Source: a virus (Duplodnaviria; Heunggongvirae; Uroviricota; Caudoviricetes). From it: a stretch of 12,498 nt of DNA. How positions within the stretch are numbered: position 1 is the stretch's first letter; each line of letters opens with the position of its first letter. The position numbers were made by a program, and so were the translations under genes. The stretch lies in the IMG/VR virus record IMGVR_UViG_2896595138_000006; one strand, written 5' to 3'. Under the pieces are notes generated by a model. That model ran no database searches, was not told the DNA's origin, and saw only the letters and a program-made list of their open reading frames with translations. Positions 1-12,113 of the stretch are shown here, piece after piece.

Positions 1-795
1 GTGCCGGAACTGACCCGCAGGACCACGAGAGGCAAAAAAGAGAGACAGAGGCCCGAAGTCGAAAATGTGGCGGCGGCATGGTACCAGGTGAAAATCAGCC
101 AGAATCTGGCCGCCAACAGTGGGCTGATTGATGCCAATCCGGCTATGAATGTGCGTAAGGCGTTTCCCTCACCTGTAAAAAAACATATGCCAACAATCCG
201 CCCCGAACAGCTGCCGGAGCTTATGCAGGCTTTATCAGTATCGGCAACAGAACGGCAGACCAGATTACTGATTGAATGGCAGTTACTGACCGTAACCCGT
301 CCCGCCGAAGCGTCATCAACGCGGTGGGATGAAATCAACCTGGACGCGAAGCAATGGACGATACCTGCCGGACGCATGAAGATGCGCAGGGATCACGTTA
401 TCCCGCTTTCCGGTCAGGCTATGGCGGTGCTGGAGGCCATGAAACCAATCAGCCACCACCGCAATTACGTTTTCCCAAGTCTGAAAGACCCACAGCAGCC
501 GATGAACAGCCAGACCGCTAACGCAGCATTGCGGCGTATGGGATTCGCTGGCGTGCTGGTGTCTCATGGATTACGCGCCATATTCAGCACAGCAGCGAAC
601 GAGGAAGGATTCGAGCCGGACGTAATAGAGGCGGCACTTGCCCACGTCGACACCAACGAAGTTAGACGGGCATACAACCGGAGCAACTACATAGAAAAAC
701 GCATCGTGCTGATGCGCTGGTGGGGCGAATTTGTCGAGGCTGCGGCGACGGGCGTAACCCTCGCCAGTGGTAAAAGGGGTATCCGAGCCGTGTAG
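1..795 (+). CDS. int: Tyrosine integrase, P4-like family; C-terminal 264 codons only (5' end of the gene lies upstream of the window)
   Basis: Frame is open from base 1 to TAG at 793-795. Translation shows the catalytic-domain pattern of phage tyrosine recombinases (WDEINLD..WTIPAGRMKMRRDHVIPL, HGLRAIFSTAANE, LAHVDTNEVRRAYNRSNY). Recognised as P4/CP4-type integrase from memory; no search run. Confidence 0.9.
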   Translation: MPELTRRTTRGKKERQRPEVENVAAAWYQVKISQNLAANSGLIDANPAMNVRKAFPSPVKKHMPTIRPEQLPELMQALSVSATERQTRLLIEWQLLTVTRPAEASSTRWDEINLDAKQWTIPAGRMKMRRDHVIPLSGQAMAVLEAMKPISHHRNYVFPSLKDPQQPMNSQTANAALRRMGFAGVLVSHGLRAIFSTAANEEGFEPDVIEAALAHVDTNEVRRAYNRSNYIEKRIVLMRWWGEFVEAAATGVTLASGKRGIRAV

Positions 796-802
796 CTGTA
801 CA

Positions 803-837
803 GAAAACCAGTAAAAACTACGAAAACCATGTAAAAC
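803..837 (+). repeat. Two 16-bp direct repeats (GAAAACCAGTAAAAAC at 803-818, GAAAACCATGTAAAAC at 822-837), 19-bp period, immediately downstream of int
   Basis: Read directly; 15/16 identity. Lies just upstream of a TATAAT hexamer at 844-849. Function unknown (candidate protein-binding sites). Confidence 0.6.
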
Positions 838-872
838 CATCGTATAATTGCATCAAATTTAACGACAAGGCC

Positions 873-1124
873 GTGAAACATGAAACCGTTAAGATGCAAA
901 AAAATATCAGATGCAATTGCGACGGGCTGCAACTGGCCCTGATGGTTCAGCATGAATTTTGGTCAACCTACGATCCGGAGGACAGAACGACGGCCCCATC
1001 AAAAAAACAGGTAGTAGATTTTCTGGTATCCCGTGGCGCTTCCAGAAATCTGGCGGTAAGTATTGATAAGGTCGTACGTCCGGCATCTATGAAGATCGGA
1101 GGCAGGCCCCAAAAATGGCGGTAA
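873..1124 (+). CDS. Hypothetical small protein (GTG start at 873, or ATG at 894)
   Basis: ORF ends at TAA 1122-1124, followed 12 bp later by a strong intrinsic terminator. No convincing Shine-Dalgarno sequence for either start and no recognisable motif. Confidence 0.3.
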   Translation: MKHETVKMQKNIRCNCDGLQLALMVQHEFWSTYDPEDRTTAPSKKQVVDFLVSRGASRNLAVSIDKVVRPASMKIGGRPQKWR

Positions 1125-1135
1125 CAATCCTGGAA

Positions 1136-1158
1136 GCGGCAGAAATGCCGCTTTTTTT
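1136..1158 (+). terminator. Rho-independent terminator (GCGGCA-gaaa-TGCCGC followed by T7)
   Basis: 6-bp GC-rich stem 1136-1141/1146-1151, 4-nt loop, T run 1152-1158. Confidence 0.55.
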
Positions 1159-1270
1159 ATAATTCCATTTCAAATCATCAATATAAAAACGGTGGGAACT
1201 GTTTTTACCCATATCCGATGATTTACCGTATTTGTCACCGGAATACACCGGATTCACAAGGTAAATCACG

Positions 1271-1477
1271 ATGGAAGCAATCAGAAAAATTATCTTTCGC
1301 CAGGAAGTAAAAAAAATTATCCACATCAAGGCAGACAGCACGCTGCAAAGCATGATCAACGCCGGAGAATTTCCGCAGGGTTTTCGCGTTGGTTTACGCC
1401 GTCGCGGATGGTATGAGGATGATGTGTTGGCCTGGCAGAAAGAACGCGAACAGGAAGCACGCGGAACGGCTGCTTAA
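1271..1477 (+). CDS. alpA: AlpA-family (Phage_AlpA / excisionase-like) transcriptional regulator
   Basis: 68 aa. The pattern EV..I.....STL...I..GEFP.G...G.R..GW...DV..W matches the AlpA/MerR-like HTH fold as remembered. Position next to the integrase is typical of P4-like and PICI elements. Confidence 0.8.
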   Translation: MEAIRKIIFRQEVKKIIHIKADSTLQSMINAGEFPQGFRVGLRRRGWYEDDVLAWQKEREQEARGTAA

Positions 1478-1513
1478 CGGGTATCACAGATATGACAAAC
1501 ACGAAAAAAGCGG

Positions 1514-1526
1514 CCCCGATATGGAG
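1514..1526. repeat. Left copy of the 13-bp target-site duplication (CCCCGATATGGAG) flanking IS4
   Basis: Identical 13-mer at 1514-1526 and 2953-2965, directly abutting the IS4 ends. Confidence 0.85.
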
Positions 1527-2952
1527 TAATGCCGATCAGTTAAGGATCAGTTGACCGATCCAGTGGCTGTGTAAGAATCCGGAAACGCTCACTTGTTTCC
1601 GGATTTTTTTATGCACATTGGACAGGCTCTTGATCTGGTATCCCGTTACGATTCTCTGCGTAACCCACTGACTTCTCTGGGGGATTACCTCGACCCCGAA
1701 CTCATCTCTCGTTGCCTTGCCGAATCAGGTACTGTAACGCTACGCAAGCGCCGTCTTCCCCTCGAAATGATGGTCTGGTGTATTGTTGGCATGGCGCTTG
1801 AGCGTAAAGAACCTCTTCACCAGATTGTGAATCGCCTGGACATCATGCTGCCGGGCAATCGCCCCTTCGTTGCCCCCAGTGCCGTTATTCAGGCCCGCCA
1901 GCGCCTGGGAAGTGAGGCTGTCCGCCGCGTGTTCACGAAAACAGCTCAGCTCTGGCATAACGCCACGCCGCATCCGCACTGGTGCGGCCTGACCCTGCTG
2001 GCCATCGATGGTGTGTTCTGGCGCACACCGGATACACCAGAGAACGATGCAGCCTTCCCCCGCCAGACACATGCCGGGAACCCGGCGCTCTACCCGCAGG
2101 TCAAAATGGTCTGCCAGATGGAACTGACCAGCCATCTGCTGACGGCTGCAGCCTTCGGCACGATGAAGAACAGCGAAAATGAGCTTGCTGAGCAACTTAT
2201 AGAACAAACCGGCGATAACACTCTGACGTTAATGGATAAAGGTTATTACTCACTGGGACTGTTAAATGCCTGGAGCCTGGCGGGAGAACACCGCCACTGG
2301 ATGATACCTCTCAGAAAGGGAGCGCAATATGAAGAGCTCAGAAAACTGGGTAAAGGCGATCATCTGGTGAAGCTGAAAACCAGCCCGCAGGCACGAAAAA
2401 AGTGGCCGGGACTGGGAAATGAAGTGACAGCCCGCCTGCTGACCGTGACGCGCAAAGGAAAAGTCTGCCATCTGCTGACGTCGATGACGGACGCCATGCG
2501 CTTCCCCGGAGGAGAAATGGCGGATCTGTACAGTCATCGCTGGGAAATCGAACTGGGATACAGGGAGATAAAACAGACGATGCAACTGAGCAGGCTGACG
2601 CTGAGAAGTAAAAAGCCGGAGCTTGTGGAGCAAGAGCTGTGGGGTGTCTTACTGGCTTATAATCTGGTGAGATATCAGATGATTAAAATGGCGGAACATC
2701 TGAAAGGTTACTGGCCGAATCAACTGAGTTTCTCAGAATCATGCGGAATGGTGATGAGAATGCTGATGACATTGCAGGGCGCTTCACCGGGACGTATACC
2801 GGAGCTGATGCGCGATCTTGCAAGTATGGGACAACTTGTGAAATTACCGACGAGAAGGGGAAGGGCCTTCCCGAGAGTGGTAAAGGAGAGGCCCTGGAAA
2901 TACCCCACAGCCCCGAAAAAGAGCCAGTCAGTTGCTTAACTGACTGGCATTA
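1527..2952 (+). mobile_element. Insertion sequence IS4, complete copy (1426 bp)
   Basis: Terminal inverted repeats TAATGCCGATCAGTTAAG (1527-1544) and CTTAACTGACTGGCATTA (2935-2952), 16/18 match. The 1426-bp length and the 442-aa transposase agree with IS4 as remembered. Flanked by a 13-bp direct duplication. Confidence 0.92.
1611..2939 (+). CDS. insG: IS4 transposase (DDE family)
   Basis: 442 aa starting [16 protein letters not shown]. Matches the E. coli IS4 transposase essentially throughout, from memory. A hairpin plus T run (1577-1610) sits immediately before the ATG. Confidence 0.92.
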
Positions 2953-2965
2953 CCCCGATATGGAG
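2953..2965. repeat. Right copy of the IS4 target-site duplication (CCCCGATATGGAG)
   Basis: See left copy. Confidence 0.85.
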
Positions 2966-3280
2966 CCGCCTTTCTGAACAATTAACCCGCTGCGCCTTAT
3001 GTGTATGTGATCCCAAACATAAGCACGGGGATGATAGACGCTATCAGGCTGGTTCAGTTCGTTGCCATACCTGCAATGAGCGCGTTTCCCTGTACTCTTT
3101 AAGGAATTGCTCAAGGGCAAAAGCACATGGTGCGAATCTTTCTGATTCATGCTCGAGCGCCATATTTTCGTGCTCTCTGTTCGTTTTTTGCGATGGTGTA
3201 TTGGTTGATTCTTTGTTGGTCATTGTGTGTACCTGTAAAGCAATGCGCCGTAGCACCTCACGCCACGGCGCTGATAGTGA

Positions 3281-3478
3281 TTATTCTGATTCTTTGGCCT
3301 TCCTGCGCTGTTCATATTTTAATTTGCGTCCACAGGCATCTAAGACCCATGCGGAAAAATTAGCACTAGGATTAGTTAATTTTTCTTGTTCAACGCTGGC
3401 ATAAACCCCATCTATAAGCTCATGTGGGAATCGAATATTTTTCTTTGCTGATTTGTTGTTTGTGTTACCGCTAGACAT
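3281..3478 (-). CDS. Arc/Mnt-like ribbon-helix-helix DNA-binding protein (putative repressor)
   Basis: 65 aa. The segment NIRFPHELIDGVYASVEQEKLTNPSANFSAWVLDA resembles the beta-strand plus two-helix pattern of P22 Arc (..NLRWPREVLDLVRKVAEENGRSVNSEIYQRV..). Shine-Dalgarno GAGGT lies 6 nt before the ATG on the minus strand. Divergent from an operator-bearing promoter. Confidence 0.6.
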   Translation of the reverse strand: MSSGNTNNKSAKKNIRFPHELIDGVYASVEQEKLTNPSANFSAWVLDACGRKLKYEQRRKAKESE

Positions 3479-3505
3479 TGATGCACCTCACTTAAATGGA
3501 CTTTA

Positions 3506-3586
3506 TGGGCGCACACAATACAGCAAAAAAAATGAGATGTTAAGTATTGACATGTGCGCACACATGATTTTAATCTGTGCGCACAG
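3506..3586 (+). promoter_or_regulatory. Rightward sigma70-like promoter (TTGACA 3547-3552, 16-bp spacer, TTTAAT 3569-3574) with palindromic operators TGTGCGCACA at 3553-3562 and 3576-3585 and a 9/10 copy at 3506-3515
   Basis: Hexamers and perfect 10-bp palindromes read directly. One operator sits in the -35/-10 spacer and one at about +1; the third lies in the leader of the divergent RHH gene. Confidence 0.45.
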
Positions 3587-3846
3587 TTTGAGTTTTGTCA
3601 CTCAAATTAAGCAACGCCCCGCAGTGCTCGCAACACATGCAGGGCGTCTAACCACCAACGATAGCAACAGTATCGAGGTAGCTATGTTAAATCATACCAC
3701 ACACCTGCAAGGGCGGGACTCGCACAACCTGAATAAAGCGGGTATGAAAAACCAGTTGATCGCCACTGCCAGCCAAGGCTATGATTCGCGTGCACCTTAT
3801 AAAACGGGTGCCGGGATTAGGACCCCGCTGACAATCGAGGCGATAC

Positions 3847-3869
3847 AGACGCCGCACGCGTCTTTTTTT
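3847..3869 (+). terminator. Intrinsic terminator inside the rightward leader (AGACGC-cgcac-GCGTCT then T7)
   Basis: 6-bp stem 3847-3852/3858-3863, T run 3863-3869. Lies about 280 nt downstream of the promoter and before the first icd-like unit. Could define a leader RNA or an attenuator. Confidence 0.4.
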
Positions 3870-3931
3870 GTATCGACGCACACGCACACCTATACAATGG
3901 TGGGCTGTATGGGGCTACCTTCGGGTAGGCT

Positions 3932-4028
3932 GGTTCCCTTGATTGCCAGTAGTCCTAACCCTGTACAGTCCACCGCCAGCGAGCTTAGGACCTCCGGCGG
4001 TGGTTACATTCCATCAATCAAGGAGGCT
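3932..4028 (+). promoter_or_regulatory. Unit-1 leader element: anti-Shine-Dalgarno segment (3932-3945) complementary to the Shine-Dalgarno region (4015-4028) of the first icd-like ORF
   Basis: CCTTGATTG (3937-3945) is the exact reverse complement of CAATCAAGG (4015-4023), which overlaps the Shine-Dalgarno sequence AAGGAGG (4020-4026). Confidence 0.35.
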
Positions 4029-4034
4029 GCCGAC

Positions 4035-4223
4035 ATGGCTACTACCCCTACCCTTGTACATTCTCAAACAGCCTTTCTCTGGCGCTTTATCGCCTTTGGT
4101 GCGTCAGAGTCCCAAATCATCCACGTCACCGCCTGGACTGAACGCGAAGCGCGTAACCATTGCCCGTCCGGTTGTGTTGCTGTATTCGCGGCCCGTATTC
4201 GTCAGGGGGTTGGCCATGCGTAA
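4035..4223 (+). CDS. Small Icd-like/Ash-family protein (62 aa); a longer in-frame form could begin at ATG 3897
   Basis: Strong Shine-Dalgarno AAGGAGG 8 nt upstream of the ATG at 4035. Motifs FLWRF, TAWTEREAR and FAARIRQG are shared with the downstream paralogue. The family name is recalled from annotations of P4-like islands, not verified. Confidence 0.55.
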   Translation: MATTPTLVHSQTAFLWRFIAFGASESQIIHVTAWTEREARNHCPSGCVAVFAARIRQGVGHA

Positions 4224-4315
4224 AAACAACTTGCAAAAAATTACCGTGGGGCTGTATTCTTCCCCGTCGCCCACATGGCGACCGGGTTTGACAGCCTGAA
4301 TAGCAAAGCGGACAG

Positions 4316-4344
4316 CCGCTTACATTCCGATATGCGGTTTTTTT
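4316..4344 (+). terminator. Terminator-like hairpin plus T7 run between the two icd-like units
   Basis: CCGC (4316-4319) and GCGG (4334-4337) flank a 14-nt loop, followed by T run 4338-4344. An alternative tight hairpin GCGG-acag-CCGC lies at 4308-4319. Same position relative to unit 2 as the terminator at 3847-3869 has relative to unit 1. Confidence 0.3.
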
Positions 4345-4409
4345 GTGTCCGTAAACCTACCCATACCCGCATTATGGCGGGGCGTAACGGGGGAGCCTTT
4401 GCGCTCGCT

Positions 4410-4502
4410 GGTTTCTTTGCTGCCAGTCTGTCAACCCTGTTACGTCCCGCCACCATGTTTGACAGCGTGCTGGCGAGACTCCTTACATCAAGCAAAGGAG
4501 CC
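4410..4502 (+). promoter_or_regulatory. Unit-2 leader element: anti-Shine-Dalgarno segment (4410-4421) complementary to the Shine-Dalgarno region (4491-4502) of the second icd-like ORF
   Basis: GGTTTCTTTGCT can pair with AGCAAAGGAGCC over 12 positions (10 Watson-Crick plus 2 G-U), covering the Shine-Dalgarno sequence AAAGGAG (4494-4500). Confidence 0.35.
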
Positions 4503-4508
4503 TTTCAC

Positions 4509-4682
4509 ATGGCTGTATCCGCACGCCCTTACTTTGTCTGGCGCTTTATGCAGTGCCTGACAGACAGCATTGCAATATTCACCGTTACCGCAGCCACTGA
4601 ACGCGAAGCCCGCGCGCAGCTGCCGCACGCACATCTGATTTTTGTCGCCCGTATTCGCCAGGGGGAAACCTATGCACAATAA
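4509..4682 (+). CDS. Small Icd-like/Ash-family protein, paralogue of 4035-4223 (57 aa); a longer in-frame form could begin at ATG 4374
   Basis: Shine-Dalgarno AAAGGAG 8 nt upstream. Shares WRF, TEREAR and ARIRQGE motifs with the upstream copy, with DNA-level similarity across the unit. Confidence 0.55.
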   Translation: MAVSARPYFVWRFMQCLTDSIAIFTVTAATEREARAQLPHAHLIFVARIRQGETYAQ

Positions 4683-4893
4683 AACCACACCGGACGCAGC
4701 CGCCGCCGCACTCACTACGCTGATGCACGCGCTTATTGATATTGAATGCACAGCAGAGCTTGCACGAAAGGAAGAACGGGAAGAATACACATTGTTCGCC
4801 CTGGAATGTATCCGATACATCGCAACGCGGTCGCTGAATGACGCTAAAAATATTCTTGTTGCTGATTGTGAAAATGGGGGGTGCCCCTATTAA
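4672..4893 (+). CDS. Hypothetical protein (73 aa)
   Basis: Start overlaps the stop of the preceding ORF (ATGCACAATAA), suggesting translational coupling. GGGGGAA lies upstream. Stop is 13 bp from the end of the IS110-family recombinase gene, so the 3' end may have been altered by the insertion. Confidence 0.45.
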   Translation: MHNKTTPDAAAAALTTLMHALIDIECTAELARKEEREEYTLFALECIRYIATRSLNDAKNILVADCENGGCPY

Positions 4894-4906
4894 GTTGTCA
4901 AGCATG

Positions 4907-6103
4907 TTATGACCCCTGCGGGGTATAAAAAGTCCCGTCGCGCATCATGGCGAACAGAACGTCGCAGCGTCGTCTCGCCAGGGCGATAAGCGCCTGATTG
5001 TGTCGTTTTCCCTGACTCATTTTGCGGGTGTAGTAAGCCCTGGAGAGCGGATCCCTGAGCGCGGCGAAGGCCAACAGGAACAACGCCCGTTTGAGAGCTT
5101 TATTACCCCGTCGCGAGGGATGCTCACCGCGTATTGACGAGCCGGATCGCCGAGTTACCGGCGCAAGGCCAGCATAAGCAGCGAGATGTGCGGCAGAGGC
5201 GAAGGCGCGGCAGGCGACCTCGGTGAGGAGTCTGGCTGCGGTCCTGACACCGACTCCGGGCATACTGGTCAGGACCGGGTAAAGAGGGTGAGCAAGAACT
5301 CGCTGTTCTACCTCAAGCGCCACCTCGTCTCTTTGCTTACGCAGCGTGATGAGCTGGAGTGCCAGACGTGGCAGTACTACGGCAGCGGCATTCGTGCCGG
5401 GAACGACGACGGTTTGTTCGGCCAGTGCCTGAGCTATGTCTGCTGCAAGGCGTTTACCCAGACGAGGCGCAAGTTTGCAGAGCTGGGCTGCCAGCTTCTT
5501 CTCACCCAGCGAAGCGAGTTTTTCTGGTGAGGGATATCGCTGGAGAAGATCGAGTACCGCCGGGTGCTCAAGTCTCGGACCGAGAACGCGCTCCAGTGCC
5601 GGATGTATCTGGGTCAGAAGGCCGCGGAGACGGTTGCTGGCCTGCGTTGTCTGTGCGGCAAGATCATCATCGAAGCCGCAGAGCATGGAGAGTTCGGCGA
5701 TTTGCTCGTCAGCCAGTTTCAGCGTGCGTAGCGCGTGAGGCAGGGTACGGGCAGCTTCGGCAATGATGGCAGCGTCACGAGCATCAGTTTTAGCTTCACC
5801 GGCGTGTAAGTCGGCTATGCGGCGCATGGCCAGTCCAGGGAGGTATCCGACAAGGACTCCTTCTGAGCGGGCAACGGCGACAGGTAACGCACCGATGGTA
5901 GCTGGCTGATCAACAACCAGCAGTATCTGACCATGTTGTTTCAGGTCAGATATTAGCGACCTGAGTTTGTTTTCGTCGTTGGGTAATGCTTTATCGAACA
6001 GGCGTTTACCTGAACGATTAATGGCAACAGCGTGATGCGTATCTTTACCGACATCAACGCCGATAAAGACCTGGACGGATTCGTAATCGCTGGATTCGGT
6101 CAT
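4907..6103 (-). CDS. IS110-family transposase/recombinase (N-terminal DEDD RuvC-like domain plus C-terminal Transposase_20 domain)
   Basis: N-terminus VFIGVDVGKDTHHAVAI and C-terminal LTSMPGVGVRTAARLL...AAYAGLAPVTRRSGSS are the hallmark motifs of IS110-family enzymes. Shine-Dalgarno AGGGAG lies 5 nt before the ATG on the minus strand. Confidence 0.9.
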   Translation of the reverse strand: MTESSDYESVQVFIGVDVGKDTHHAVAINRSGKRLFDKALPNDENKLRSLISDLKQHGQILLVVDQPATIGALPVAVARSEGVLVGYLPGLAMRRIADLHAGEAKTDARDAAIIAEAARTLPHALRTLKLADEQIAELSMLCGFDDDLAAQTTQASNRLRGLLTQIHPALERVLGPRLEHPAVLDLLQRYPSPEKLASLGEKKLAAQLCKLAPRLGKRLAADIAQALAEQTVVVPGTNAAAVVLPRLALQLITLRKQRDEVALEVEQRVLAHPLYPVLTSMPGVGVRTAARLLTEVACRAFASAAHLAAYAGLAPVTRRSGSSIRGEHPSRRGNKALKRALFLLAFAALRDPLSRAYYTRKMSQGKRHNQALIALARRRCDVLFAMMRDGTFYTPQGS

Positions 6104-6330
6104 TCTGTCTCCCTTGTATATGGGTTAACCAGATAACCACGGGGAGCAGGTACCGGCATCCACGTTACAGACGGTCCCGGCAAAAGTGCCTGACCTGACC
6201 CCTATTAGCGATTACCAGCGCCCCACCAGACCCGGTGACATCACCCCCGGATCATGGACGACTGGGGGCAGTAATCATGCCGGGTCTGGCTGGCTAACAC
6301 CCCATTATAAGGGGTACGAATAAAGTAACG
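6104..6330 (-). ncRNA. Candidate bridge (guide) RNA region of the IS110-family element
   Basis: The non-coding 5' flank of the recombinase contains a 10-bp perfect inverted repeat CCAGACCCGG (6226-6235) / CCGGGTCTGG (6280-6289) enclosing a CCCCC/GGGGG inner stem, plus a further hairpin at 6299-6315. IS110-group elements are known to encode a structured RNA here. Not folded or searched. Confidence 0.3.
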
Positions 6331-6335
6331 GGGTT

Positions 6336-6569
6336 ATGCGTGATATTTACATTGAAATAACAGACCGCGCATTTCTTGCACTTTCTCACAGTGAAAATAT
6401 GTTGGAAATATTGCAAATGTGTCTGGAAACATTTGGCGATAATGAGCGTGATAAACAGAAATCAAGGATTGTCACGGCATTAATAACGCTTCTTGAGCCT
6501 GTAATAAATGAGTTGCAGGAAATAGAGACATTACACGACCAGTATAAAGCGCCCCACACCGGAGAATAA
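6336..6569 (+). CDS. Hypothetical protein (77 aa)
   Basis: ATG start with a weak GGGG upstream. Predicted helical, no recognisable motif. Lies immediately beside the probable IS boundary. Confidence 0.4.
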   Translation: MRDIYIEITDRAFLALSHSENMLEILQMCLETFGDNERDKQKSRIVTALITLLEPVINELQEIETLHDQYKAPHTGE

Positions 6570-6574
6570 AAATA

Positions 6575-6670
6575 ATGAAACTTAAATATCCTGGCTTAAC
6601 TGCCAGCGGCAAAACTCGCACTAAATTCATGCGCGGGATATTTACCGCGATAAGTACGGCGGCACGGTAA
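6575..6670 (+). CDS. Hypothetical small ORF (31 aa)
   Basis: Shine-Dalgarno GGAG lies 10 nt upstream of the ATG. Too short to judge. Confidence 0.25.
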   Translation: MKLKYPGLTASGKTRTKFMRGIFTAISTAAR

Positions 6671-6681
6671 TAATTAAGGGC

Positions 6682-6873
6682 GTGGAGGAACGGCGCGTAA
6701 CCTACCGTCGTGAAGGCTACGAATATGATTGCGTGATGCCTGTTTATCAGTTCGACCGTGATTTTTCTCTTGTGCAGGCCGTACCGCGTAACGTGCCCAC
6801 CAGCAGGGAGAAAGCACGCGCCAATATTCAGGAAATAAAAAAGATGCTTAACGTATTCAGGGGTAAAAAATGA
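6682..6873 (+). CDS. Hypothetical protein (63 aa, GTG start), translationally coupled to the primase gene
   Basis: Its stop overlaps the primase start (ATGA at 6870-6873). Upstream Shine-Dalgarno spacing is poor, so the start is uncertain. Confidence 0.35.
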   Translation: MEERRVTYRREGYEYDCVMPVYQFDRDFSLVQAVPRNVPTSREKARANIQEIKKMLNVFRGKK

Positions 6874-8624
6874 AACTGGCACCGAACGTAAAAAAACAGC
6901 CACGCGGAATAAAACACAAAGACACAGAGGTAATTATCTTTGCGGGTAGTGATGCCTGGGCACACGCGAAACAGTGGCAGGAACATGACGCGCGTACAGC
7001 CGGAGATAATGAGCCTCCTGTGTGGCTTGGAGAGCAGCAGCTATCCGAACTGGATAATCTGCAAATTGTGCCGGATGGCAGAAAATCAGCACGCATATAC
7101 AGAGCCGGACATCTTGAGCCTGTAATGATCAAGGCGATTGGTCAGAAGCTGGCGGCGGCAGGTGTACAGGATGCAAATTTTTATCTTGAGGGTATGCACG
7201 GCCAGGAGGTGCAGAACTGGCGCGAATATCTGGCCCGTGAACGCCAGAATCTTTCTGATGGTCTGGTCATTGAGCTTCCGGTAAAGCAAAAGGCGCAACT
7301 TTCGCAGATGGCAGACAGTGAGCGCGCACAGATGCTTGCTGGTCGATTTGATGGCGTTTGTGTGCATCCGGAAAGTGAAATCGTTCACGTATGGCGCGGC
7401 GGGATATGGTGTCCGGTCAGCACAATGGAACTGAGCCGCGAAATGGTGGCGGTTTATTCAGAACACGGGGCCACATTCAGCAAGCGGGCAATTAATAACG
7501 CCGTTGAAGCGTTAAAAGTTATTGCTGACCCGATGGGCGAGCCGTCCAGTGATTTGCTACCGTTCACTAATGGTGTGCTTAACCTGAAAACGGGGGAATT
7601 TTCCCCGCACACGCCGGAGAACTGGATCACCACGCACAACGGCATTGAGTACACGCCACCAGCACCAGGGGAGAATATCCGCGACAACGCGCCAAACTTT
7701 CATAAATGGCTTGATCACGCAGCCGGAAAAGACCCGCGCAAGATGATGCGCATATGTGCCGCGCTTTACATGATTATGGCGAACCGGTACGACTGGCAGA
7801 TGTTTATTGAGGCCACCGGAGACGGCGGGAGCGGTAAAAGTACATTCACACACATAGCCAGCCTTCTGGCAGGGAAACAGAACACGGTAAGCGCTGAAAT
7901 GACATCGCTTGATGATGCTGGTGGACGTGCGCAGGTTGTCGGGAGTCGTCTTATCGTCCTGGCTGACCAGCCGAAATATACAGGCGAAGGAACGGGCATC
8001 AAGAAAATCACGGGCGGCGACCCCGTGGAAATTAACCCGAAATATGAAAAGCGTTTCACGGCGGTAATCAGGGCGGTGGTGCTGGCGACCGACAACAACC
8101 CGATGATATTCACCGAACGGGCCGGAGGTGTGGCACGTCGTCGCGTGATTTTCCGTTTCGACAATATCGTCAGTGAGGCCGAAAAAGACAGGGAGCTACC
8201 GGAAAAGATTGCGGCTGAAATCCCCGTTATTATCCGCCGATTGCTGGCGAACTTTACCGACCCTGAGAAGGCACGGGCTTTACTACTGGAACAGCGTGAC
8301 GGTGATGAAGCACTGGCAATAAAGCAACAGACGGATCCGGTTATTGAGTTTTGCCAGTTCCTGAATTTTCTGGAGGAAGCGCGCGGCCTGATGATGGGTG
8401 GCGGTGGTGATTCAGTGAAGTACACGACCAGGAACAGCCTTTACCGCGTCTATCTGGCGTTTATGGCATACGCAGGCAGGAGCAAACCGCTAAACGTAAA
8501 TGACTTTGGCAAGGCTATGAAGCCTGCCGCAAAAGTTTACGGACATGAATATATTACGCGGAAAGTTAAGGGGGTAACGCAGACTAACGCAATAACAACA
8601 GACGAGTGCGACGCGTTTTTATAA
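6870..8624 (+). CDS. Primase/helicase, phage P4 alpha-like (D5-N-type plus SF3 helicase domain)
   Basis: 584 aa. Walker A motif ATGDGGSGKSTF and the surrounding pattern (IVLADQP, VLATDNNP) match the P4-family primase C-terminal helicase domain as remembered. The N-terminal 200 aa are consistent with a Toprim-like domain. Followed by the iteron cluster. Confidence 0.88.
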   Translation: MKLAPNVKKQPRGIKHKDTEVIIFAGSDAWAHAKQWQEHDARTAGDNEPPVWLGEQQLSELDNLQIVPDGRKSARIYRAGHLEPVMIKAIGQKLAAAGVQDANFYLEGMHGQEVQNWREYLARERQNLSDGLVIELPVKQKAQLSQMADSERAQMLAGRFDGVCVHPESEIVHVWRGGIWCPVSTMELSREMVAVYSEHGATFSKRAINNAVEALKVIADPMGEPSSDLLPFTNGVLNLKTGEFSPHTPENWITTHNGIEYTPPAPGENIRDNAPNFHKWLDHAAGKDPRKMMRICAALYMIMANRYDWQMFIEATGDGGSGKSTFTHIASLLAGKQNTVSAEMTSLDDAGGRAQVVGSRLIVLADQPKYTGEGTGIKKITGGDPVEINPKYEKRFTAVIRAVVLATDNNPMIFTERAGGVARRRVIFRFDNIVSEAEKDRELPEKIAAEIPVIIRRLLANFTDPEKARALLLEQRDGDEALAIKQQTDPVIEFCQFLNFLEEARGLMMGGGGDSVKYTTRNSLYRVYLAFMAYAGRSKPLNVNDFGKAMKPAAKVYGHEYITRKVKGVTQTNAITTDECDAFL

Positions 8625-8636
8625 TTTTTTGTAATT

Positions 8637-8855
8637 GCTGTCTACCTGAGCAAAGGAAAATACATTTAATTCAGTACATTAAGTTAGGTAGACAGCTTTT
8701 TTTTACTGTCTACCCACTATCTACCCTCTCTACCTGATTTTACCTGAATCAGACAGGGAGGTAGACACGGGGTAGATAGTGGATAAAAACACTCTACCCC
8801 GCTGAAAGCCGCGCCATTACTGGCATGAGGGCCAGCAAGGTAGATAAGGTAGACA
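8637..8855. repeat. Iteron cluster, probable replication origin (ori/crr-like): about 10 copies of the octamer TGTCTACC / GGTAGACA and close variants
   Basis: TGTCTACC at 8639-8646 and 8707-8714; TATCTACC at 8718-8725; TCTCTACC at 8727-8734; GGTAGACA at 8687-8694, 8760-8767 and 8848-8855; GGTAGATA at 8771-8778 and 8839-8846; partial copies at 8738-8744 and 8793-8799. An 11-bp perfect inverted repeat (8637-8647 / 8686-8696) flanks an AT-rich 38-bp spacer and is followed by a T8 run. The octamer resembles the P4 alpha-binding repeat TGTTCACC. Confidence 0.65.
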
Positions 8856-8902
8856 AGGGGAGGCACAACTCAAAACTTTTTAAACGAGGGGTAAAAATAA
8901 AC

Positions 8903-9064
8903 ATGCACACTTCAGGAAAATTTAATAAATCACTCAAAAAACGCAGAGACAGAACAGAACCGAAATATCGCGCGTTAGACATGACAGAGCACGCTTTAAA
9001 GGTGGCAATCAGAACGATAGACCGCCACGCGGGGAAGGATACGCGAAGGAACATCCCGACCTGA
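8903..9064 (+). CDS. Hypothetical small basic protein (53 aa)
   Basis: ATG at 8903 with GAGGGG about 12 nt upstream. Lys/Arg-rich. The 5' part of the longer ORF in the track overlaps the iterons and was trimmed. Confidence 0.3.
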   Translation: MHTSGKFNKSLKKRRDRTEPKYRALDMTEHALKVAIRTIDRHAGKDTRRNIPT

Positions 9065-9176
9065 TAAGCGCATTCATGACCACAGCAGCGGCAAACTTTG
9101 CCACGCTGACAGAACGGGAGATTGCCGAAGCGGAACAGGTAACAACCATCAACGTTAAAACCGGAGAGGTGGAATC

Positions 9177-9587
9177 ATGACAGCACAGATAGCAGCTTAC
9201 GGACGGTTGGTGGACGACCCGCAGGTAAAACAGACCAGCAAGGGCACACCGATGACGCTGGCGCGTATGGCGGTATCGCTGCCATGCAGCCAGGCACAGG
9301 ACGGACAGGCGACGTTATGGCTATCGGTGATGGCATTTGGTAAGCAGGCCGACTTCCTGGCTAAACATCAAAAAGGCGACGTTGCCAGCGTATCCGGCAC
9401 GATGCAGGTCAGCCAGTGGACCGGACAGAACGGGGAAACGCGGCAGGGTTATCAGGTTATTGCCGACAGCGTAATCAGTGCCCGAGCGGCACGCCCTGGC
9501 GGGAACAGACGCAAAACCACAGGCACACAGGGTAATCAGCCACCAGCGGGAGACGATGACCCCTACGGTGATGATATTCCGTTCTGA
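9177..9587 (+). CDS. ssb: Single-stranded DNA-binding protein (SSB), phage/plasmid type
   Basis: 136 aa. OB-fold pattern (G.L..DP.V.......P..LA......WLSVMAFGKQADFLAKH.KGD...V.G......W....G..R.G) followed by a Gly/Gln-rich linker and the acidic tail DDDPYGDDIPF characteristic of SSB. Shine-Dalgarno GGAGAGGTGG upstream. Confidence 0.85.
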   Translation: MTAQIAAYGRLVDDPQVKQTSKGTPMTLARMAVSLPCSQAQDGQATLWLSVMAFGKQADFLAKHQKGDVASVSGTMQVSQWTGQNGETRQGYQVIADSVISARAARPGGNRRKTTGTQGNQPPAGDDDPYGDDIPF

Positions 9588-9595
9588 ACGCACAG

Positions 9596-9617
9596 GCCGG
9601 AGAAAATCCGGCTTTTT
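9596..9617 (+). terminator. Rho-independent terminator after ssb (GCCGGA-gaaaa-TCCGGC followed by T5)
   Basis: Stem 9596-9601/9607-9612, T run 9613-9617. Confidence 0.6.
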
Positions 9618-9623
9618 GTACCC

Positions 9624-9667
9624 AAAAAAAGCCCGATAAGTACAGGAGGAAGCTTATCGGGCTTTTG
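9624..9667. terminator. Second, probably bidirectional terminator (A7, 11-bp perfect stem AGCCCGATAAG / CTTATCGGGCT, T4)
   Basis: Stem 9630-9640/9653-9663 with a 12-nt loop, an A run on the 5' side and a T run on the 3' side. Confidence 0.5.
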
Positions 9668-9740
9668 CTTACGAGGTTAACAGCATGGTGACTACTGTTG
9701 TCGTAAATCATTTCATAATTTGCAATGCAACTCAATTCTA

Positions 9741-9797
9741 TTGCACAAAATGCAACTATGATTATAATTATAACTGGATGTACATCCAGTTATAATT
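9741..9797 (+). promoter_or_regulatory. Promoter of the head module (TTGCAC 9741-9746, 16-bp spacer, TATAAT 9763-9768) overlapped by a 32-bp perfect palindrome operator (9766-9797)
   Basis: AATTATAACTGGATGTACATCCAGTTATAATT is perfectly self-complementary about the 9781/9782 centre and overlaps the -10 hexamer and start region. Direct repeats TGCAACT lie at 9725-9731 and 9751-9757. Confidence 0.5.
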
Positions 9798-9824
9798 TTT
9801 TAAGTCGAAAAGGAATTTCTGACT

Positions 9825-10031
9825 ATGACAGAAGAGAAAAAAGGCGGGGTGACAGTTTACATAAGCCCCGATATCGTGGAGGCGCTCAAGGAACGCCACC
9901 AGCAGAACGTAAAAGCGGGCATTGCGGCAGGACTTGATCCGCTGGCGATGGTTGAGCCGTCAACAGGCTGGCAGGTACGCGCCTATTTACGTGCGGCGCT
10001 TGGCATGAATCAGACTCATGAGGGTGAATAA
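9825..10031 (+). CDS. Hypothetical protein (68 aa), first gene of the head module
   Basis: AAGGA lies 10 nt upstream. Stop overlaps the capsid gene start (TAATG), suggesting translational coupling. No recognisable motif. Confidence 0.5.
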   Translation: MTEEKKGGVTVYISPDIVEALKERHQQNVKAGIAAGLDPLAMVEPSTGWQVRAYLRAALGMNQTHEGE

Positions 10032-11086
10032 TGGCAGACAAAGCAACGGCACTTAACACTAACCAGCTTTTCGCGTACCTGAATCGCGGGGATATCCCGG
10101 AATTTAAATTCAGTCCGCTGTTTACCACGCTGTTTTTCCCGAAAGTAGCAACCTTCAACACACAAGATGTCATGCTGGATACCCTGGACATTGAAGAAGT
10201 CACCATGTCGGCGTTTTGTTCGCCTGTGGTGGGTAGCCAGGTTCAGCGTGATAAAGGGTACGAAACAAGCACTATCCGCCCTGGCTACATGAAACCCAAA
10301 CACGAAATCGATCCATCAAAAACCATCATGCGCATGGCTGGAGAAGATCCGGCACTGCTTAACGACCCCACCTGGCGACGTATGCGCCTCATTACTGGCA
10401 ACATGCGCCGCCAGATAAACGCCATTAAAGCGCGTGTGGAATGGCTGGCAGTGAATGCGGTCACGACCGGAAAAAACATCATTGAAGGCGAAGGCATAGA
10501 ACGCTATGAAATCGACTGGAATATGCCGGCAAACTGCATTGTCCATCAGGGGCCAGGAAAAAAATGGTCTGAGCAGAATAAAGAGACGCATGATCCGACA
10601 GATGACATCGAGCTATACGCCGAACAGGCCAGCTGCCCCGCCAACGTCATGATTATGGGCGCTGACGTATGGCGCACCTTACGTAGCTTTAAAAAATTCC
10701 GCGAGCTGTACGATCTTTCCCGTGGTTCAGAATCCGCCGCAGAGCTGGCGTGTAAAAACCTGGGCGAAGTGGTGAGCTTTAAAGGCTATCTGGGTGATCT
10801 GGCCCTTATCGTCTATTCCGGCAAATACACCGACAGCGACGGCACCGAAAAATATTTCCTTGAGCCTGATTTGCTTGTCCTGGGCAACACCAGCAATAAA
10901 GGTCTGGTGGCCTATGGCGCGATTATGGATCCGGAAGCGGTAAGAACGGGCGCAACGCAAAACATGTACTACCCGAAAAACTGGATTGAGAGCGGCGATC
11001 CGGCGATTGAGTACGTGCAGACGCACAGCGCACCGCAGCCGGTTCCGGCAGATATCCGCAAATTTGTTACTGTGAAAATTGGTTAA
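10031..11086 (+). CDS. Major capsid protein, lambda gpE-like (Phage_cap_E family)
   Basis: 351 aa. Multiple blocks align by eye with lambda gpE: FKFSPLFTTLFF, PGYMKPKHE, HDPTDDIELYA, LRSFKKF, LGEVVSFKGYLGDLALIVYSGKY, LVLGNTSNKGLVAYGAIMD, YYPKNWIESGDPAIEY and QTHSAPQP. Shine-Dalgarno GAGGGTGA upstream. Confidence 0.9.
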   Translation: MADKATALNTNQLFAYLNRGDIPEFKFSPLFTTLFFPKVATFNTQDVMLDTLDIEEVTMSAFCSPVVGSQVQRDKGYETSTIRPGYMKPKHEIDPSKTIMRMAGEDPALLNDPTWRRMRLITGNMRRQINAIKARVEWLAVNAVTTGKNIIEGEGIERYEIDWNMPANCIVHQGPGKKWSEQNKETHDPTDDIELYAEQASCPANVMIMGADVWRTLRSFKKFRELYDLSRGSESAAELACKNLGEVVSFKGYLGDLALIVYSGKYTDSDGTEKYFLEPDLLVLGNTSNKGLVAYGAIMDPEAVRTGATQNMYYPKNWIESGDPAIEYVQTHSAPQPVPADIRKFVTVKIG

Positions 11087-11097
11087 CGGGAGATTCT

Positions 11098-11401
11098 ATG
11101 GGCACTCCATATGTTGAGTTATATGCAGGCACACAGCAGGTTGCCACGACGCTGGTACATTTTTCCGCTGATGCTGGCGGACAATGGCGAGTTTAAGGCG
11201 TGGGATGGTCAGGAATCTGGCAAGGCTGTTTATCTGACGGCGTACCCCGTGGACACGTCAAAGCAGAAATCAGCACAGTGTTACAAGACGGGGATATTTA
11301 ATATCGCCGCCGTTAACTGGCCCGAGAGCGTCGACACCGACGCGAAAAAATGCGCCGCTTTTGCGGGTTCTGGCGTATCCGTTCAGCCACTGGTGCGATA
11401 A
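11098..11401 (+). pseudogene. Head decoration protein, lambda gpD / phage 21 SHP-like, with an apparent +1 frameshift in a T5 run (11160-11164)
   Basis: Shine-Dalgarno GGGAG lies 6 nt before ATG 11098, and that frame stops at 11194-11196. The gpD-like sequence continues in the +1 frame to TAA 11399-11401 (PLMLADNGEFKAWDG...YKTGIF...WPESVDTDAKKCAAFAGSG versus lambda PLMLDTSSRKLVAWDG...YKSGTF...WPEAASDETKKRTAFAGTA). Deleting one T from the T5 run gives a continuous 100-aa gpD-like ORF. Confidence 0.6.
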
Positions 11402-11413
11402 GCAGGGGGAACG

Positions 11414-11827
11414 ATGGCAATCAATGAAGCTATCATGGCGCTACCGCTGGCGAGTAAATTTAAAGCCGAAGCGCGGGCAATGGCGGACAGAGGTTTATCA
11501 ACCTACGAGGCTATATATCAACTTAACAAACTGGAAGAGCAGGACAAGCCGCGCACTGATGCGATTATGGCGCTTCATGAATCTGACGACTATCAGCCGC
11601 TGTTACGTGCAATGGCAAACGTGCCATGTATTAGCGTCGATAATGCCCGGGAAATCCTGAACATGACCATAGAGCAGGAACGCCCGAAGGTTGCGCCGGA
11701 GCTTACCGCAGCCTTTGAAAACTTTATGGACATGCACAGCCCGCAGGCCGTAAGCCCTGGCATGGCATACGATGGCAGATATCAGGGTGATGACGGCGAA
11801 ATCGATCGCATACTGAAAACCATCTGA
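11414..11827 (+). CDS. Hypothetical acidic protein (137 aa) in the head module
   Basis: Shine-Dalgarno AGGGGGAA upstream of the ATG. Followed directly by a strong terminator. No recognisable motif; predicted largely helical. Confidence 0.6.
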   Translation: MAINEAIMALPLASKFKAEARAMADRGLSTYEAIYQLNKLEEQDKPRTDAIMALHESDDYQPLLRAMANVPCISVDNAREILNMTIEQERPKVAPELTAAFENFMDMHSPQAVSPGMAYDGRYQGDDGEIDRILKTI

Positions 11828-11833
11828 GAAAAG

Positions 11834-11857
11834 GCCGGAGAAATCCGGCTTTTTTTT
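11834..11857 (+). terminator. Rho-independent terminator (GCCGGA-gaaa-TCCGGC followed by T8)
   Basis: Stem 11834-11839/11844-11849, T run 11850-11857. The stem sequence is nearly identical to the terminator at 9596-9617. Confidence 0.65.
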
Positions 11858-11932
11858 GCGGGTCCTTCCGGTGGGGTGGCCTGCCACGGGGCGGGAGCGG
11901 CGCAGAATTTCACTATTTATGAAAATTTTTCG

Positions 11933-12035: not shown

Positions 12036-12113
12036 ATATGCCGCGTTTCATAAAGTTGTTCGCAAGATGCATGTTTAAAACGCATGAGGGGAGATTTTTG
12101 GGCGAGGTGAACA

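What the first reader, a model, noticed from the sequence alone, without database searches (positions are those of the whole stretch)
4894..6335. IS110-family element with a structured 5' flank: candidate bridge-RNA-guided recombinase
The minus-strand 398-aa protein has the IS110 hallmarks (DEDD RuvC-like N-terminus, Transposase_20 C-terminus with the conserved Ser). Its 3' flank is only about 13 bp before the neighbouring gene, while the 5' flank (6104-6335) is about 230 bp and non-coding. That flank contains a 10-bp perfect inverted repeat (6226-6235 / 6280-6289) around a CCCCC/GGGGG inner stem, plus another hairpin at 6299-6315. In the IS110 subgroup this flank encodes the bridge RNA that specifies target and donor sequences. 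This copy is longer than the IS621 recombinase I remember (about 326 aa), so it may be a less-studied member with its own programmable RNA.
Basis: partly seen in the sequence, partly recalled or inferred. Interest (0 to 1): 0.55.

Follow-up and report, generated by a model that had tools for sequence, protein, structure and literature searches.

The report
ISEc20 insertion sequence with bridge RNA
This is a copy of ISEc20, a catalogued IS110-family mobile element found in about a third of complete E. coli genomes, and its 5' flank does encode the expected bridge (guide) RNA, here aimed at runs of C/G, so the finding is correct but ordinary.

Summary

- **Identity.** The 398-aa minus-strand ORF (4907-6103) is the recombinase of ISEc20 (=ISSfl4 cluster). 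It occurs in 1799 of 5426 complete E. coli genomes. A published table already assigns this cluster a left-end bridge RNA.
- **Boundaries.** An occupied/empty allele pair places the element at 4882-6329, with a duplicated 2-bp core (GG on +, CC in element orientation). The whole 5' flank belongs to the IS.
- **RNA structure.** Sixty-three relatives from Proteobacteria and Actinobacteria share a 5' hairpin and two stem-closed loops. Twenty base pairs show compensatory changes.
- **Guides.** Loop 1 carries ..CUG-CCCCC and GGGGGG-UG, matching the C-run target. Loop 2 carries AUAGGGGC and GUAACG, matching the element's right and left tips. A few guide variants co-vary with the DNA.
- **This copy.** It carries a rare 1-nt deletion in the right target guide (5 G instead of 6).
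- **Protein length.** 398 aa is normal for the IS110-proper subgroup.

No RNA or activity data exist here. Interest is low.

The parts
4880..4881 (-). Core dinucleotide copy at the right-end junction (GG on +, CC in element orientation).
   Evidence: The empty allele has 8 G. The occupied allele has 6 + 4 G.
4882..4906 (-). Right end (RE), 25 nt, non-coding. It holds the left-donor sequence ATAGGGGCA (4882-4890 on +) and a TTGACA hexamer (4896-4901 on +) that could act as a -35 box after circularisation.
   Evidence: The end is shared by all copies. TTGAC(A/G)-N5-6-ATAGGG(G/A)CA is conserved in relatives from two phyla.
4907..6103 (-). ISEc20 recombinase, 398 aa, with an RuvC-like DEDD domain, a long linker and a Tnp domain.
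   Evidence: Pfam and NCBIfam matches. The C-terminal domain aligns to the IS621 and ISCro4 structures, and the SGSS motif aligns to IS621 S241. RefSeq names it ISEc20.
6104..6329 (-). Left end (LE), 226 nt, non-coding. The RBS AAGGGAGA lies at 6108-6115.
   Evidence: Present in all copies and absent from the empty site.
6141..6316 (-). Predicted bridge RNA body, about 175 nt: 5' hairpin, target-binding loop, donor-binding loop. The RNA ends are inferred, not mapped.
   Evidence: Covariation on alignment A1: 95% of cells paired, 20 pairs with compensatory change, 0 of 500 shuffles as high.
6299..6315 (-). 5' stem-loop (ACCCC UUAUAAU GGGGU).
   Evidence: helix 1; three pairs with changes on both sides.
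6225..6290 (-). Target-binding loop, closed by the basal stem 6280-6290 / 6225-6235.
   Evidence: Helix 2: 11 pairs, 6 of them with compensatory changes, 98% paired.
6264..6272 (-). Left target guide (RNA ACUGCCCCC). It has the same sense as the left target plus core.
   Evidence: Flanks of 67 distinct sites end in CCC(C)(C). The base before the C-run matches the guide more often than in permuted pairings, p 0.002-0.008.
6242..6248 (-). Right target guide GGGGG (6244-6248) plus the putative handshake guide UG (6242-6243). This copy has 5 G where the consensus has 6.
   Evidence: GGGGGG-UG is the reverse complement of CA-CC-CCCC at the right junction. The 1-nt deletion is private to this copy among 13 aligned copies. 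The 5-G allele is found in 9 of 1142 E. coli records.
6141..6224 (-). Donor-binding loop, closed by the basal stem about 6214-6223 / 6142-6151, with a distal hairpin at 6173-6195.
   Evidence: Helices 5-7: 11 of 14 pairs show compensatory changes.
6199..6207 (-). Left donor guide (RNA UAAUAGGGG). It is identical to the right-end tip TAATAGGGG.
   Evidence: AUAGGGAC in the RNA goes with ATAGGGACA in the RE in 10 elements. AUAGGGG in the RNA goes with ATAGGGGCA in the RE in the rest, except L042 (AUAGGGUC).
6160..6168 (-). Right donor guide GUAACGU (6162-6168) plus the putative handshake guide GG (6160-6161).
   Evidence: GUAACG is the reverse complement of C-GTTAC at the left-end tip. It is invariant in 63 sequences.
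6325..6331 (-). Left-end tip GTTAC (right donor, 6325-6329) and the core copy CC (6330-6331).

Best explanation
Window 4882-6329 is a near-consensus copy of ISEc20, an IS110-group insertion sequence inserted into a G8 run of a phage-satellite-like island.

**How it works, by homology with IS621 (inferred).**
- The element excises as a circle. This joins the right end to the left end as ...TTGACA-N14-CC-GTTACTTT..., which may create a junction promoter.
- That promoter would drive a bridge RNA of about 175 nt, followed by the recombinase mRNA.
- The RNA has a 5' hairpin and two stem-closed loops.

**Loop 1, target binding.**
[quoted passage not shown] - The following UG can 'handshake' with the donor's CA.
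- Together these direct insertion into C-runs of about 7-10 nt, ideally ACTG followed by nine C.

**Loop 2, donor binding.**
- AUAGGGGC recognises the right-end tip ATAGGGGC.
- GUAACG recognises the left-end tip C-GTTAC.
- The following GG can 'handshake' with the target's CC.

**Recombination.** It occurs at a CC core, which ends up on both sides of the insertion.

**This copy.** It has lost one G of the right target guide.

**Shown versus inferred.**
- Shown here: identity, boundaries, the 2-bp duplication, the RNA stems (by covariation) and the guide/DNA complementarity.
- Inferred: transcription, RNA ends, protein binding, cleavage positions and activity.
For: **Identity.**
- RefSeq names it ISEc20. 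It has 3053 places in 1799 of 5426 genomes.
- Pfam and NCBIfam matches.
- Durrant et al., Suppl. Table 5, lists ISSfl4/ISEc20 with the bridge RNA in the LE.

**Boundaries.** L001 (occupied, same site) and L009 (empty) differ exactly by the element plus GG.

**Structure.**
- On 63 distinct LE sequences, 95% of cells are paired.
- 20 pairs and 183 cells show changes on both sides.
- 0 of 500 shuffles reach the observed values.
- Slid controls pair only 35-55% of cells.

**Target guides.**
- All elements sit between ...CCC(C)| and |CCCCCC.
- They carry CCCCC and GGGGGG in loop 1.
- L079 has GGGGUG and its flank reads CACCCC.
- The base before the C-run co-varies between guide and flank, p 0.002-0.008.

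**Donor guides.**
- The G/A change in AUAGGGRC is mirrored in the RE tip in two unrelated clades.
- GUAACG matches C-GTTAC.

**Agreement with IS621.**
- The strand rule (5' side of a loop pairs with the bottom strand, 3' side with the top strand) and the loop order match IS621.
- The two bases 3' of the right target and right donor guides fit the handshake rule.

**Other.**
- There is no sigma-70-like promoter in the integrated LE, which fits dependence on a junction promoter.
- The Tnp domain aligns to the IS621 and ISCro4 structures.
Against: - There is no expression, RNA-end, binding or transposition evidence.
- Rfam has no model for this RNA, so there is no independent family hit.
- The guides are almost invariant across the clade, so guide/DNA covariation rests on few events:
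  - one MAG contig end (L079);
  - about two independent G/A co-changes;
  - a permutation test that is not corrected for phylogeny.
- The fixed-register test of upstream left-target-guide positions was not significant, p = 0.30.
- CCCCC and GGGGG can pair with each other, so a structural stem cannot be excluded.
- The left donor guide does not pair with the last donor base or with the core, unlike IS621.
- The junction -10 box (TACTTT, 18-nt spacer) is weak.
- The exact crossover position inside a homopolymer cannot be fixed from sequence alone.
Confidence: 0.85

Rival explanations
1. The element is a bridge-RNA IS, but this particular copy is impaired or inert. The 1-nt deletion shortens the right target guide to 5 G, shifting or weakening pairing with the CCCCCC right target. 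The copy also has two private amino-acid changes.
For: - All 12 other copies aligned have 6 G, L001 (the same insertion site in another strain) among them.
- The 5-G allele occurs in only 9 of 1142 E. coli records.
- Residues L159 and L344 are private to this copy.
Against: - The ORF is intact and no catalytic residue is changed.
- Five G-C pairs may be enough.
- Relatives with 5 or 7 G exist.
- A homopolymer length miscall in the assembly cannot be excluded.
Confidence: 0.3
2. CCCCC/GGGGG is a structural stem inside loop 1. The C-run target would then be read by other RNA bases or by the protein.
For: - The two segments pair in the MFE and in the RNAalifold structures.
- 98.7% of cells are paired.
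Against: - There are no compensatory changes in this helix.
- Three of the four sequences that vary there (L019, L079, L089) break a pair; the fourth (L043) keeps a G-U wobble.
- The segments sit where IS621 has its left and right target guides, and have the sense the strand rule requires.
- The L079 variant GGGGUG matches its flank CACCCC, not its partner CCCCC.
- The remaining loop bases are conserved, while the flanks outside the C-run are not.
Confidence: 0.1
3. The structured left end is only a 5' UTR or promoter region that regulates recombinase expression. Site choice would be protein-determined.
For: - The structure lies directly upstream of the RBS.
- No RNA data are available.
Against: - Complementarity to both element tips and to the target, in the IS621 layout, with co-variation.
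- NCBIfam and the published experiments on IS621 and ISEc21 show that such non-coding regions are required guides.
Confidence: 0.04
4. An IS1111-group element, with its guide (seek) RNA downstream of the gene.
For: None beyond membership of the wider family.
Against: - The right end is 25 nt and the left end is 226 nt.
- The longest inverted match between the two 60-nt ends is 6 nt and is out of register.
- The published table places this cluster in the IS110 group with the RNA in the LE.
Confidence: 0.01

Closest known systems
IS621 bridge recombinase and bridge RNA (E. coli; Durrant et al. 2024 PMC11208160; Hiraizumi et al. 2024 PMC11208158)
   Same: - DEDD RuvC-like domain plus Tnp domain with a catalytic Ser motif.
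- Long LE and short RE.
- A 2-bp core.
- RNA order: 5' hairpin, then target loop, then donor loop.
[quoted passage not shown]
- Two-base handshake positions 3' of the right target and right donor guides.
- A -35-like hexamer at the RE tip.
- ATA/TAT-type short repeats flank the donor in relatives (ATAGGGGCACCGTTACTAT).
   Different: - The protein is 398 aa against 326 aa, with a longer linker between the domains. Only the C-terminal domain aligns by sequence (E 2e-14).
- The second acidic residue appears to be Asp (D65) rather than Glu. This rests on a weak alignment.
- The core is CC rather than CT.
- The target is a homopolymer, so the two target guides are mutually complementary.
- The left donor guide stops one base before the core.
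- The right donor guide has U opposite the first core C.
- The guides are nearly invariant across phyla.
IS110 proper and its subgroup (IS110, ISSfl4, ISBma3 and others; cluster in Durrant Suppl. Table 1)
   Same: - Same protein cluster.
- Same size class, 395-455 aa.
- ISSfl4 is grouped with ISEc20 as one entry.
   Different: Nothing substantive. I found no paper in the held library that describes the guides or target of this subgroup.
ISEc21 seekRNA (IS110 type; Siddiquee et al. 2024 PMC11187229)
   Same: An upstream non-coding region is needed for circle formation and transposition, and a promoter forms at the circle junction.
   Different: - It belongs to a different clade (345-385 aa).
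- Its target lies inside IS3-family transposase genes.
- It is reported to insert without duplicating target bases.
IS1111 group (ISEc11, IS4321, IS5075)
   Same: DEDD recombinase and RNA-guided site choice.
   Different: Its RNA lies downstream of the gene, it has long subterminal inverted repeats, and the order of its guides is reversed. None of this is seen here.

Membership tests
IS110 family (DEDD recombinase IS) | N-terminal RuvC-like DEDD domain (PF01548) | tested here: met
   E 5e-49 over residues 14-168. D17, D107 and D110 align to IS621 D11, D102 and D105. D65 aligns to E60, but that alignment is weak.
IS110 family (DEDD recombinase IS) | C-terminal Tnp domain (PF02371) with a conserved catalytic Ser | tested here: met
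   E 4e-22. Residues 276-392 align to IS621 8wt6 at E 2e-14. S320 in RRSGSS aligns to the ESGSS motif that holds S241; the numbering offset is inferred.
IS110 family (DEDD recombinase IS) | Site-specific insertion with a short core repeated at both junctions and no classical terminal inverted repeats | tested here: met
   A 2-bp GG/CC duplication is seen by comparing the occupied and empty alleles. The sites with a full right flank show C-run flanks in nearly all cases. No terminal inverted repeat is present.
IS110 group (as opposed to IS1111 group) | Long non-coding LE and short RE, with the RNA upstream of the gene | tested here: met
   LE 226 nt, RE 25 nt. Listed as 'LE / IS110' in the published table.
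IS110 group (as opposed to IS1111 group) | No 7-17-bp subterminal inverted repeats, only 2-4 bp | tested here: met
   The longest inverted match between the two ends is 6 nt and is out of register. Only AATA...TATT (ATAG...CTAT in relatives) flanks the donor.
Bridge RNA (IS621 type) | Two internal loops closed by stems that are conserved through compensatory changes | tested here: met
   helices 2 and 5-7 have 17 pairs with changes on both sides. 0 of 500 shuffles reach the observed values.
Bridge RNA (IS621 type) | In loop 1, the 5' side has the same sense as left target plus core, and the 3' side is complementary to core plus right target | tested here: met
   ..G-CCCCC and GGGGGG against flanks ..G-CCCC| and |CCCCCC. 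Co-variation evidence is limited (L079; p 0.002-0.008). The fixed-register test was not significant.
Bridge RNA (IS621 type) | Loop 2 is complementary to the element's own joined ends (left and right donor) | tested here: met
   AUAGGGRC matches the RE tip, with a G/A co-change. GUAACG matches C-GTTAC. Pairing with the core itself is incomplete.
Bridge RNA (IS621 type) | Handshake guides: the two bases 3' of the right target and right donor guides pair with the non-cognate DNA | tested here: met
   UG pairs with donor CA, and GG pairs with target CC. Neither pairs fully with its cognate DNA. This is consistency of sequence only.
Bridge RNA (IS621 type) | A promoter is reconstituted at the RE-LE junction of the circle | tested here: inconclusive
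   TTGACA is conserved at the RE tip. The best -10 box is TACTTT at an 18-nt spacing, matching 3 of 6 positions. No promoter is found in the integrated state.
Bridge RNA (IS621 type) | The RNA is expressed, bound by the recombinase and required for recombination | not testable with these tools
   This needs RNA sequencing, co-purification and transposition assays.

The most novel reading that the evidence does not exclude
In the IS110-proper clade the two target guides (C5 and G6) are complementary to each other. The target-binding loop would therefore stay zipped shut until it meets a homopolymeric C/G tract. Both the guide and the target are slippage-prone homopolymers, and 5-G, 6-G and 7-G guide alleles exist. 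The clade has kept this one specificity while spreading between Proteobacteria and Actinobacteria. That would be a self-gated, register-variable form of bridge-RNA targeting, aimed at G-runs such as Shine-Dalgarno-like tracts.
Probability: 0.25. Interest if true: 0.4.

Novelty: already known. Interest (0 to 1): 0.2.

Why it matters
The value is mostly bookkeeping. The region is a known, very common E. coli IS and should be annotated as ISEc20 with exact ends.

The modest added value is a concrete guide map for the IS110-proper subgroup, whose recombinases are 395-455 aa. I found no experimental bridge-RNA work on this subgroup in the held literature. The map covers:
- a CC core;
- a C-run target;
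- the donor sequence ATAGGGGCA-CC-GTTAC;
- the handshake bases.

The map makes reprogramming experiments on this larger recombinase clade straightforward to design. It also explains why ISEc20 lands in G/C runs. Here the run is the G8 tract that serves as the ribosome-binding site of a small gene in a satellite island.

Tried and rejected
- **Rfam**, at gathering and at permissive thresholds, has no bridge-RNA family. Only chance hits fall inside the IS.
- **No exact empty allele of the window itself** was found; the best flank matches are about 90% identical mosaics. The pair L001 (same site, occupied) and L009 (empty) settled the boundaries instead.
- **Fixed-register test** of whether the variable bases 5' of the guide's C-run match each element's own flank gave no signal, p = 0.30. 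Only a register anchored on the start of the C-run gave a signal.
- **Sigma-70 promoter scan** of the integrated element found none.
- **IS1111-type anatomy** was considered and rejected.
- **Literature searches** for ISEc20 and ISSfl4 returned only genome surveys.
- **Several relatives have damaged right-end tips** (L019, L038, L043, L059 read ATAG(G)(G) followed directly by a C-run), and L049 has extra GC-rich DNA after the tip. I left them out of the donor co-variation count.
- **Not run:** structure prediction of the recombinase and the large protein database searches. They would not change the verdict.
Full report
**Observation.**
- ORF 4907-6103 on the minus strand encodes 398 aa.
- It matches Pfam DEDD_Tnp_IS110 (residues 14-168, E 5e-49) and Transposase_20 (277-358, E 4e-22).
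- It exceeds the cut-off of NCBIfam NF033542, 'IS110 family RNA-guided transposase'.
- The perfect 10-bp inverted repeat 6226-6235 / 6280-6289, the CCCCC (6244-6248) / GGGGG (6264-6268) pair and the hairpin 6299-6315 are in the sequence.
- As a single sequence, the flank folds only modestly better than shuffles (z = -2.36).

**Identity and boundaries.**
- A megablast of 4850-6400 against complete E. coli genomes finds 3053 places in 1799 of 5426 genomes. Most are at least 99% identical, and all are annotated 'IS110-like element ISEc20 family transposase'.
- Seven copies in different contexts share sequence only between GGGGGGTGCCCC... on the left and ...GTAACGGG on the right of the window.
- L001 is the same insertion site in another strain. 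L008 and L009 are uninterrupted alleles of that site.
- The empty site reads GTGAAAAT-GGGGGGGG-TTATGCGTGAT. The occupied site reads GTGAAAAT-GGGGGG|TGCCCC...GTAAC|GGGG-TTATGCGTGAT.
- The element is therefore 4882-6329: 1448 bp here and 1449 bp in 12 other copies. A 2-bp GG is duplicated (CC in element orientation).
- Because the site is a homopolymer, the crossover point is the most parsimonious placement, not a proven one.
- The right end is 25 nt and the left end is 226 nt. The two ends share no subterminal inverted repeat longer than 6 nt. The IS1111 alternative therefore fails too.

**Relatives and RNA structure.**
- A scan of one genome per species returned 80 loci. They comprise ISEc20/ISSfl4 copies in E. 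coli and Shigella, one 93% relative, and many elements at 73-81% amino-acid identity.
- The 73-81% elements come from Burkholderiales, Oxalobacteraceae and other Proteobacteria, and from Microbacteriaceae and other Actinobacteria.
- All relatives whose ends could be read begin GTTAC(T/C)(T/A)T. Apart from a few with damaged tips, they end TTGAC(A/G)-N5-6-ATAGGG(G/A)CA. With few exceptions they sit between ...CCC(C) and CCCCCC....
- Sixty-three distinct left ends align over 221 columns (A1).
- On a structure of a 5' hairpin plus two stem-closed loops, 95% of cells are paired. Twenty pairs and 183 cells show changes on both sides. No shuffle out of 500 reaches the observed values. Sliding the 3' partners by 1-3 columns drops pairing to 35-55%.
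- The basal stems of loop 1 (window 6280-6290 / 6225-6235) and loop 2 (about 6214-6223 / 6142-6151), and the distal hairpin of loop 2, carry most of the compensatory changes.
- The CCCCC/GGGGGG segment carries none. Three of the four sequences that vary there break a pair, and the fourth keeps only a G-U wobble.

**Guides.** For IS621, Durrant et al. state the following rule (PMC11208160).
- The first loop binds the target and the second binds the donor.
[quoted passage not shown] Applied here, in element orientation, the target is ...N-CCC-CC-CCCC-N... and the joined donor is TTAATAGGGGCA-CC-GTTACTTT.
- **Loop 1.** The 5' side carries AUUACUG-CCCCC, the same sense as left target plus core. 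The 3' side carries GGGGGG in the consensus, the complement of CC-CCCC.
- **Loop 2.** The 5' side carries UAAUAGGGG, the same sense as the right-end tip. The 3' side carries GUAACG, the complement of C-GTTAC.
- **Handshake positions.** Hiraizumi et al. (PMC11208158) found that the two bases 3' of the right target and right donor guides pair with the non-cognate DNA after strand exchange. Here they are UG, which pairs with the donor's CA, and GG, which pairs with the target's CC.

Co-variation between guides and DNA is limited, because the guides are nearly invariant.
- L079 has GGGGUG and its right flank reads CACCCC. This is a single case at the end of a MAG contig.
- AUAGGGAC in the RNA goes with ATAGGGACA at the right end in 10 distinct elements. 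These belong to two unrelated groups, Oxalobacteraceae and Pseudoclavibacter-like Actinobacteria. AUAGGGG goes with ATAGGGGCA in all others except L042, which has AUAGGGUC.
- The base or bases just before the C-run match between guide and flank more often than in permuted pairings (p 0.002-0.008). This is not corrected for phylogeny.
- A fixed-register version of that test was not significant (p = 0.30).
- Among 13 distinct ISEc20 sites, several approach the predicted optimum ACTG followed by nine C. L006, for example, reads CTG followed by ten C.

They are complementary to each other only because the target is a homopolymer.

**This copy.**
- Against 12 other copies it has four private differences:
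  - loss of one G in the right target guide (5 G at 6244-6248);
  - T for C at 6211, where T is the state in the wider family;
  - two coding changes, I159L and S344L.
- An exact match to the 5-G allele occurs in 9 of 1142 E. coli records. About 1119 carry the 6-G allele.
- The change could be real slippage or a homopolymer miscall. If real, it removes one guide-target pair.
- The ORF is otherwise intact.

**Expression.**
- No sigma-70-like promoter is found in the integrated element.
- The right-end tip carries a perfect TTGACA seven bases after the stop codon, and the hexamer is conserved across phyla.
- After circularisation it would lie 18 bp upstream of TACTTT (TACTAT in many relatives) at the start of the left end.
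- The geometry resembles the junction promoters shown for IS621 and ISEc21, but the -10 box is weak. I rate this feature inconclusive.

**Protein.**
- Only the C-terminal domain aligns by sequence to the solved IS621 and ISCro4 recombinases (E 2e-14 and 4e-12).
- S320 falls on the SGSS motif that holds IS621 S241.
- The extra length lies between the two domains, residues 169-276.
- Siddiquee et al. (PMC11187229) note that the subgroup containing IS110 itself spans 395-455 aa because of a larger variable region. The length is therefore typical.

**Context.**
- The element sits in a small integrative island that carries:
  - a partial tyrosine integrase;
  - an IS4-family transposase;
  - an Ash-family protein;
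  - isrK and two C4 antisense RNAs;
  - a D5-type primase-helicase;
  - SSB;
  - a major capsid protein.
- In the empty alleles, the G8 run lies 2 nt upstream of the ATG of a small gene and inside the last codons of the gene before it.
- The insertion rewrites the last residues of the upstream ORF, which now stops inside the IS at 4893. It also separates the downstream ORF from upstream transcription.

**Comparison and verdict.**
- The element works like IS621 and passes every sequence-level membership test for the IS110 group and for a bridge RNA. The exceptions are the junction promoter (inconclusive) and the experimental criteria (not testable here).
- It is already known:
  - ISEc20 is a named IS;
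  - NCBI annotates the family as RNA-guided;
  - Durrant et al., Suppl. Table 5, lists 'ISSfl4 / LE / IS110 / ISEc20;ISSfl4'.
- I found no paper in the held library that describes its guides or target. The guide map above is therefore incremental detail, not a new kind of system.
- Interest is low (0.2).

Noticed in passing
window 1-12498: The window looks like a small integrative phage-satellite or PICI-like island. It carries a partial tyrosine integrase (1-795), an Ash-family protein (3453-4223), a D5_N/DUF5906/Pox_D5 primase-helicase (6870-8624), SSB (9177-9587) and a major capsid protein E (10031-11086).
   Followed up: partly
window 1593-2939 (+): A second insertion sequence: a 448-aa ORF with Nterm_IS4 and DDE_Tnp_1 domains (IS4 family) sits between the integrase and the regulatory region.
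   Followed up: no
window 3792-3868, 3893-3980, 4370-4457 (+): Rfam finds isrK and two C4 antisense RNAs above their gathering scores. This is a P1/P7-type immunity module (c4/icd-like) just upstream of the IS.
   Followed up: no
window 6336-6344 versus L001 4488-4709: The window lacks a small gene of about 222 bp. That gene lies immediately beside the IS left end in L001 (same insertion site) and in the empty alleles L008 and L009. The missing segment is bounded by a 9-bp repeat, ATGCGTGAT, so it is either an IS-adjacent deletion or recombination between paralogous gene starts.
   Followed up: partly
L014 2722-2735, L016 2722-2735, L054 2723-2736: In two Shigella/E. coli loci and one Cupriavidus relative, the right end is followed by C-GTTAC... 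host sequence instead of a C-run. The element has inserted into a site that mimics its own left junction (left target, core, right donor). This resembles the 'half-match' recombination named in the title of a 2026 preprint (10.64898/2026.08.31.748434).
   Followed up: partly
L019, L038, L043, L059 (right-end tips); L049: Several relatives have right-end tips that read ATAG(G)(G) followed directly by the C-run. They have lost part of GGGGCA, the tight GGGG-CA-CCCC inverted repeat at the junction. L049 has extra GC-rich DNA between the tip and a 13-C run. These are probably decayed copies or assembly errors.
   Followed up: no
L017 (Shigella flexneri copy): This ISEc20 copy carries D110N in the recombinase. 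D110 aligns to the catalytic D105 of IS621, so the copy is probably inactive.
   Followed up: no
L018-L089: Elements 73-81% identical in protein, with almost identical guide sequences, occur in both Betaproteobacteria/Gammaproteobacteria and Actinobacteria (Microbacteriaceae). This implies spread across phyla with the same C-run specificity retained.
   Followed up: partly
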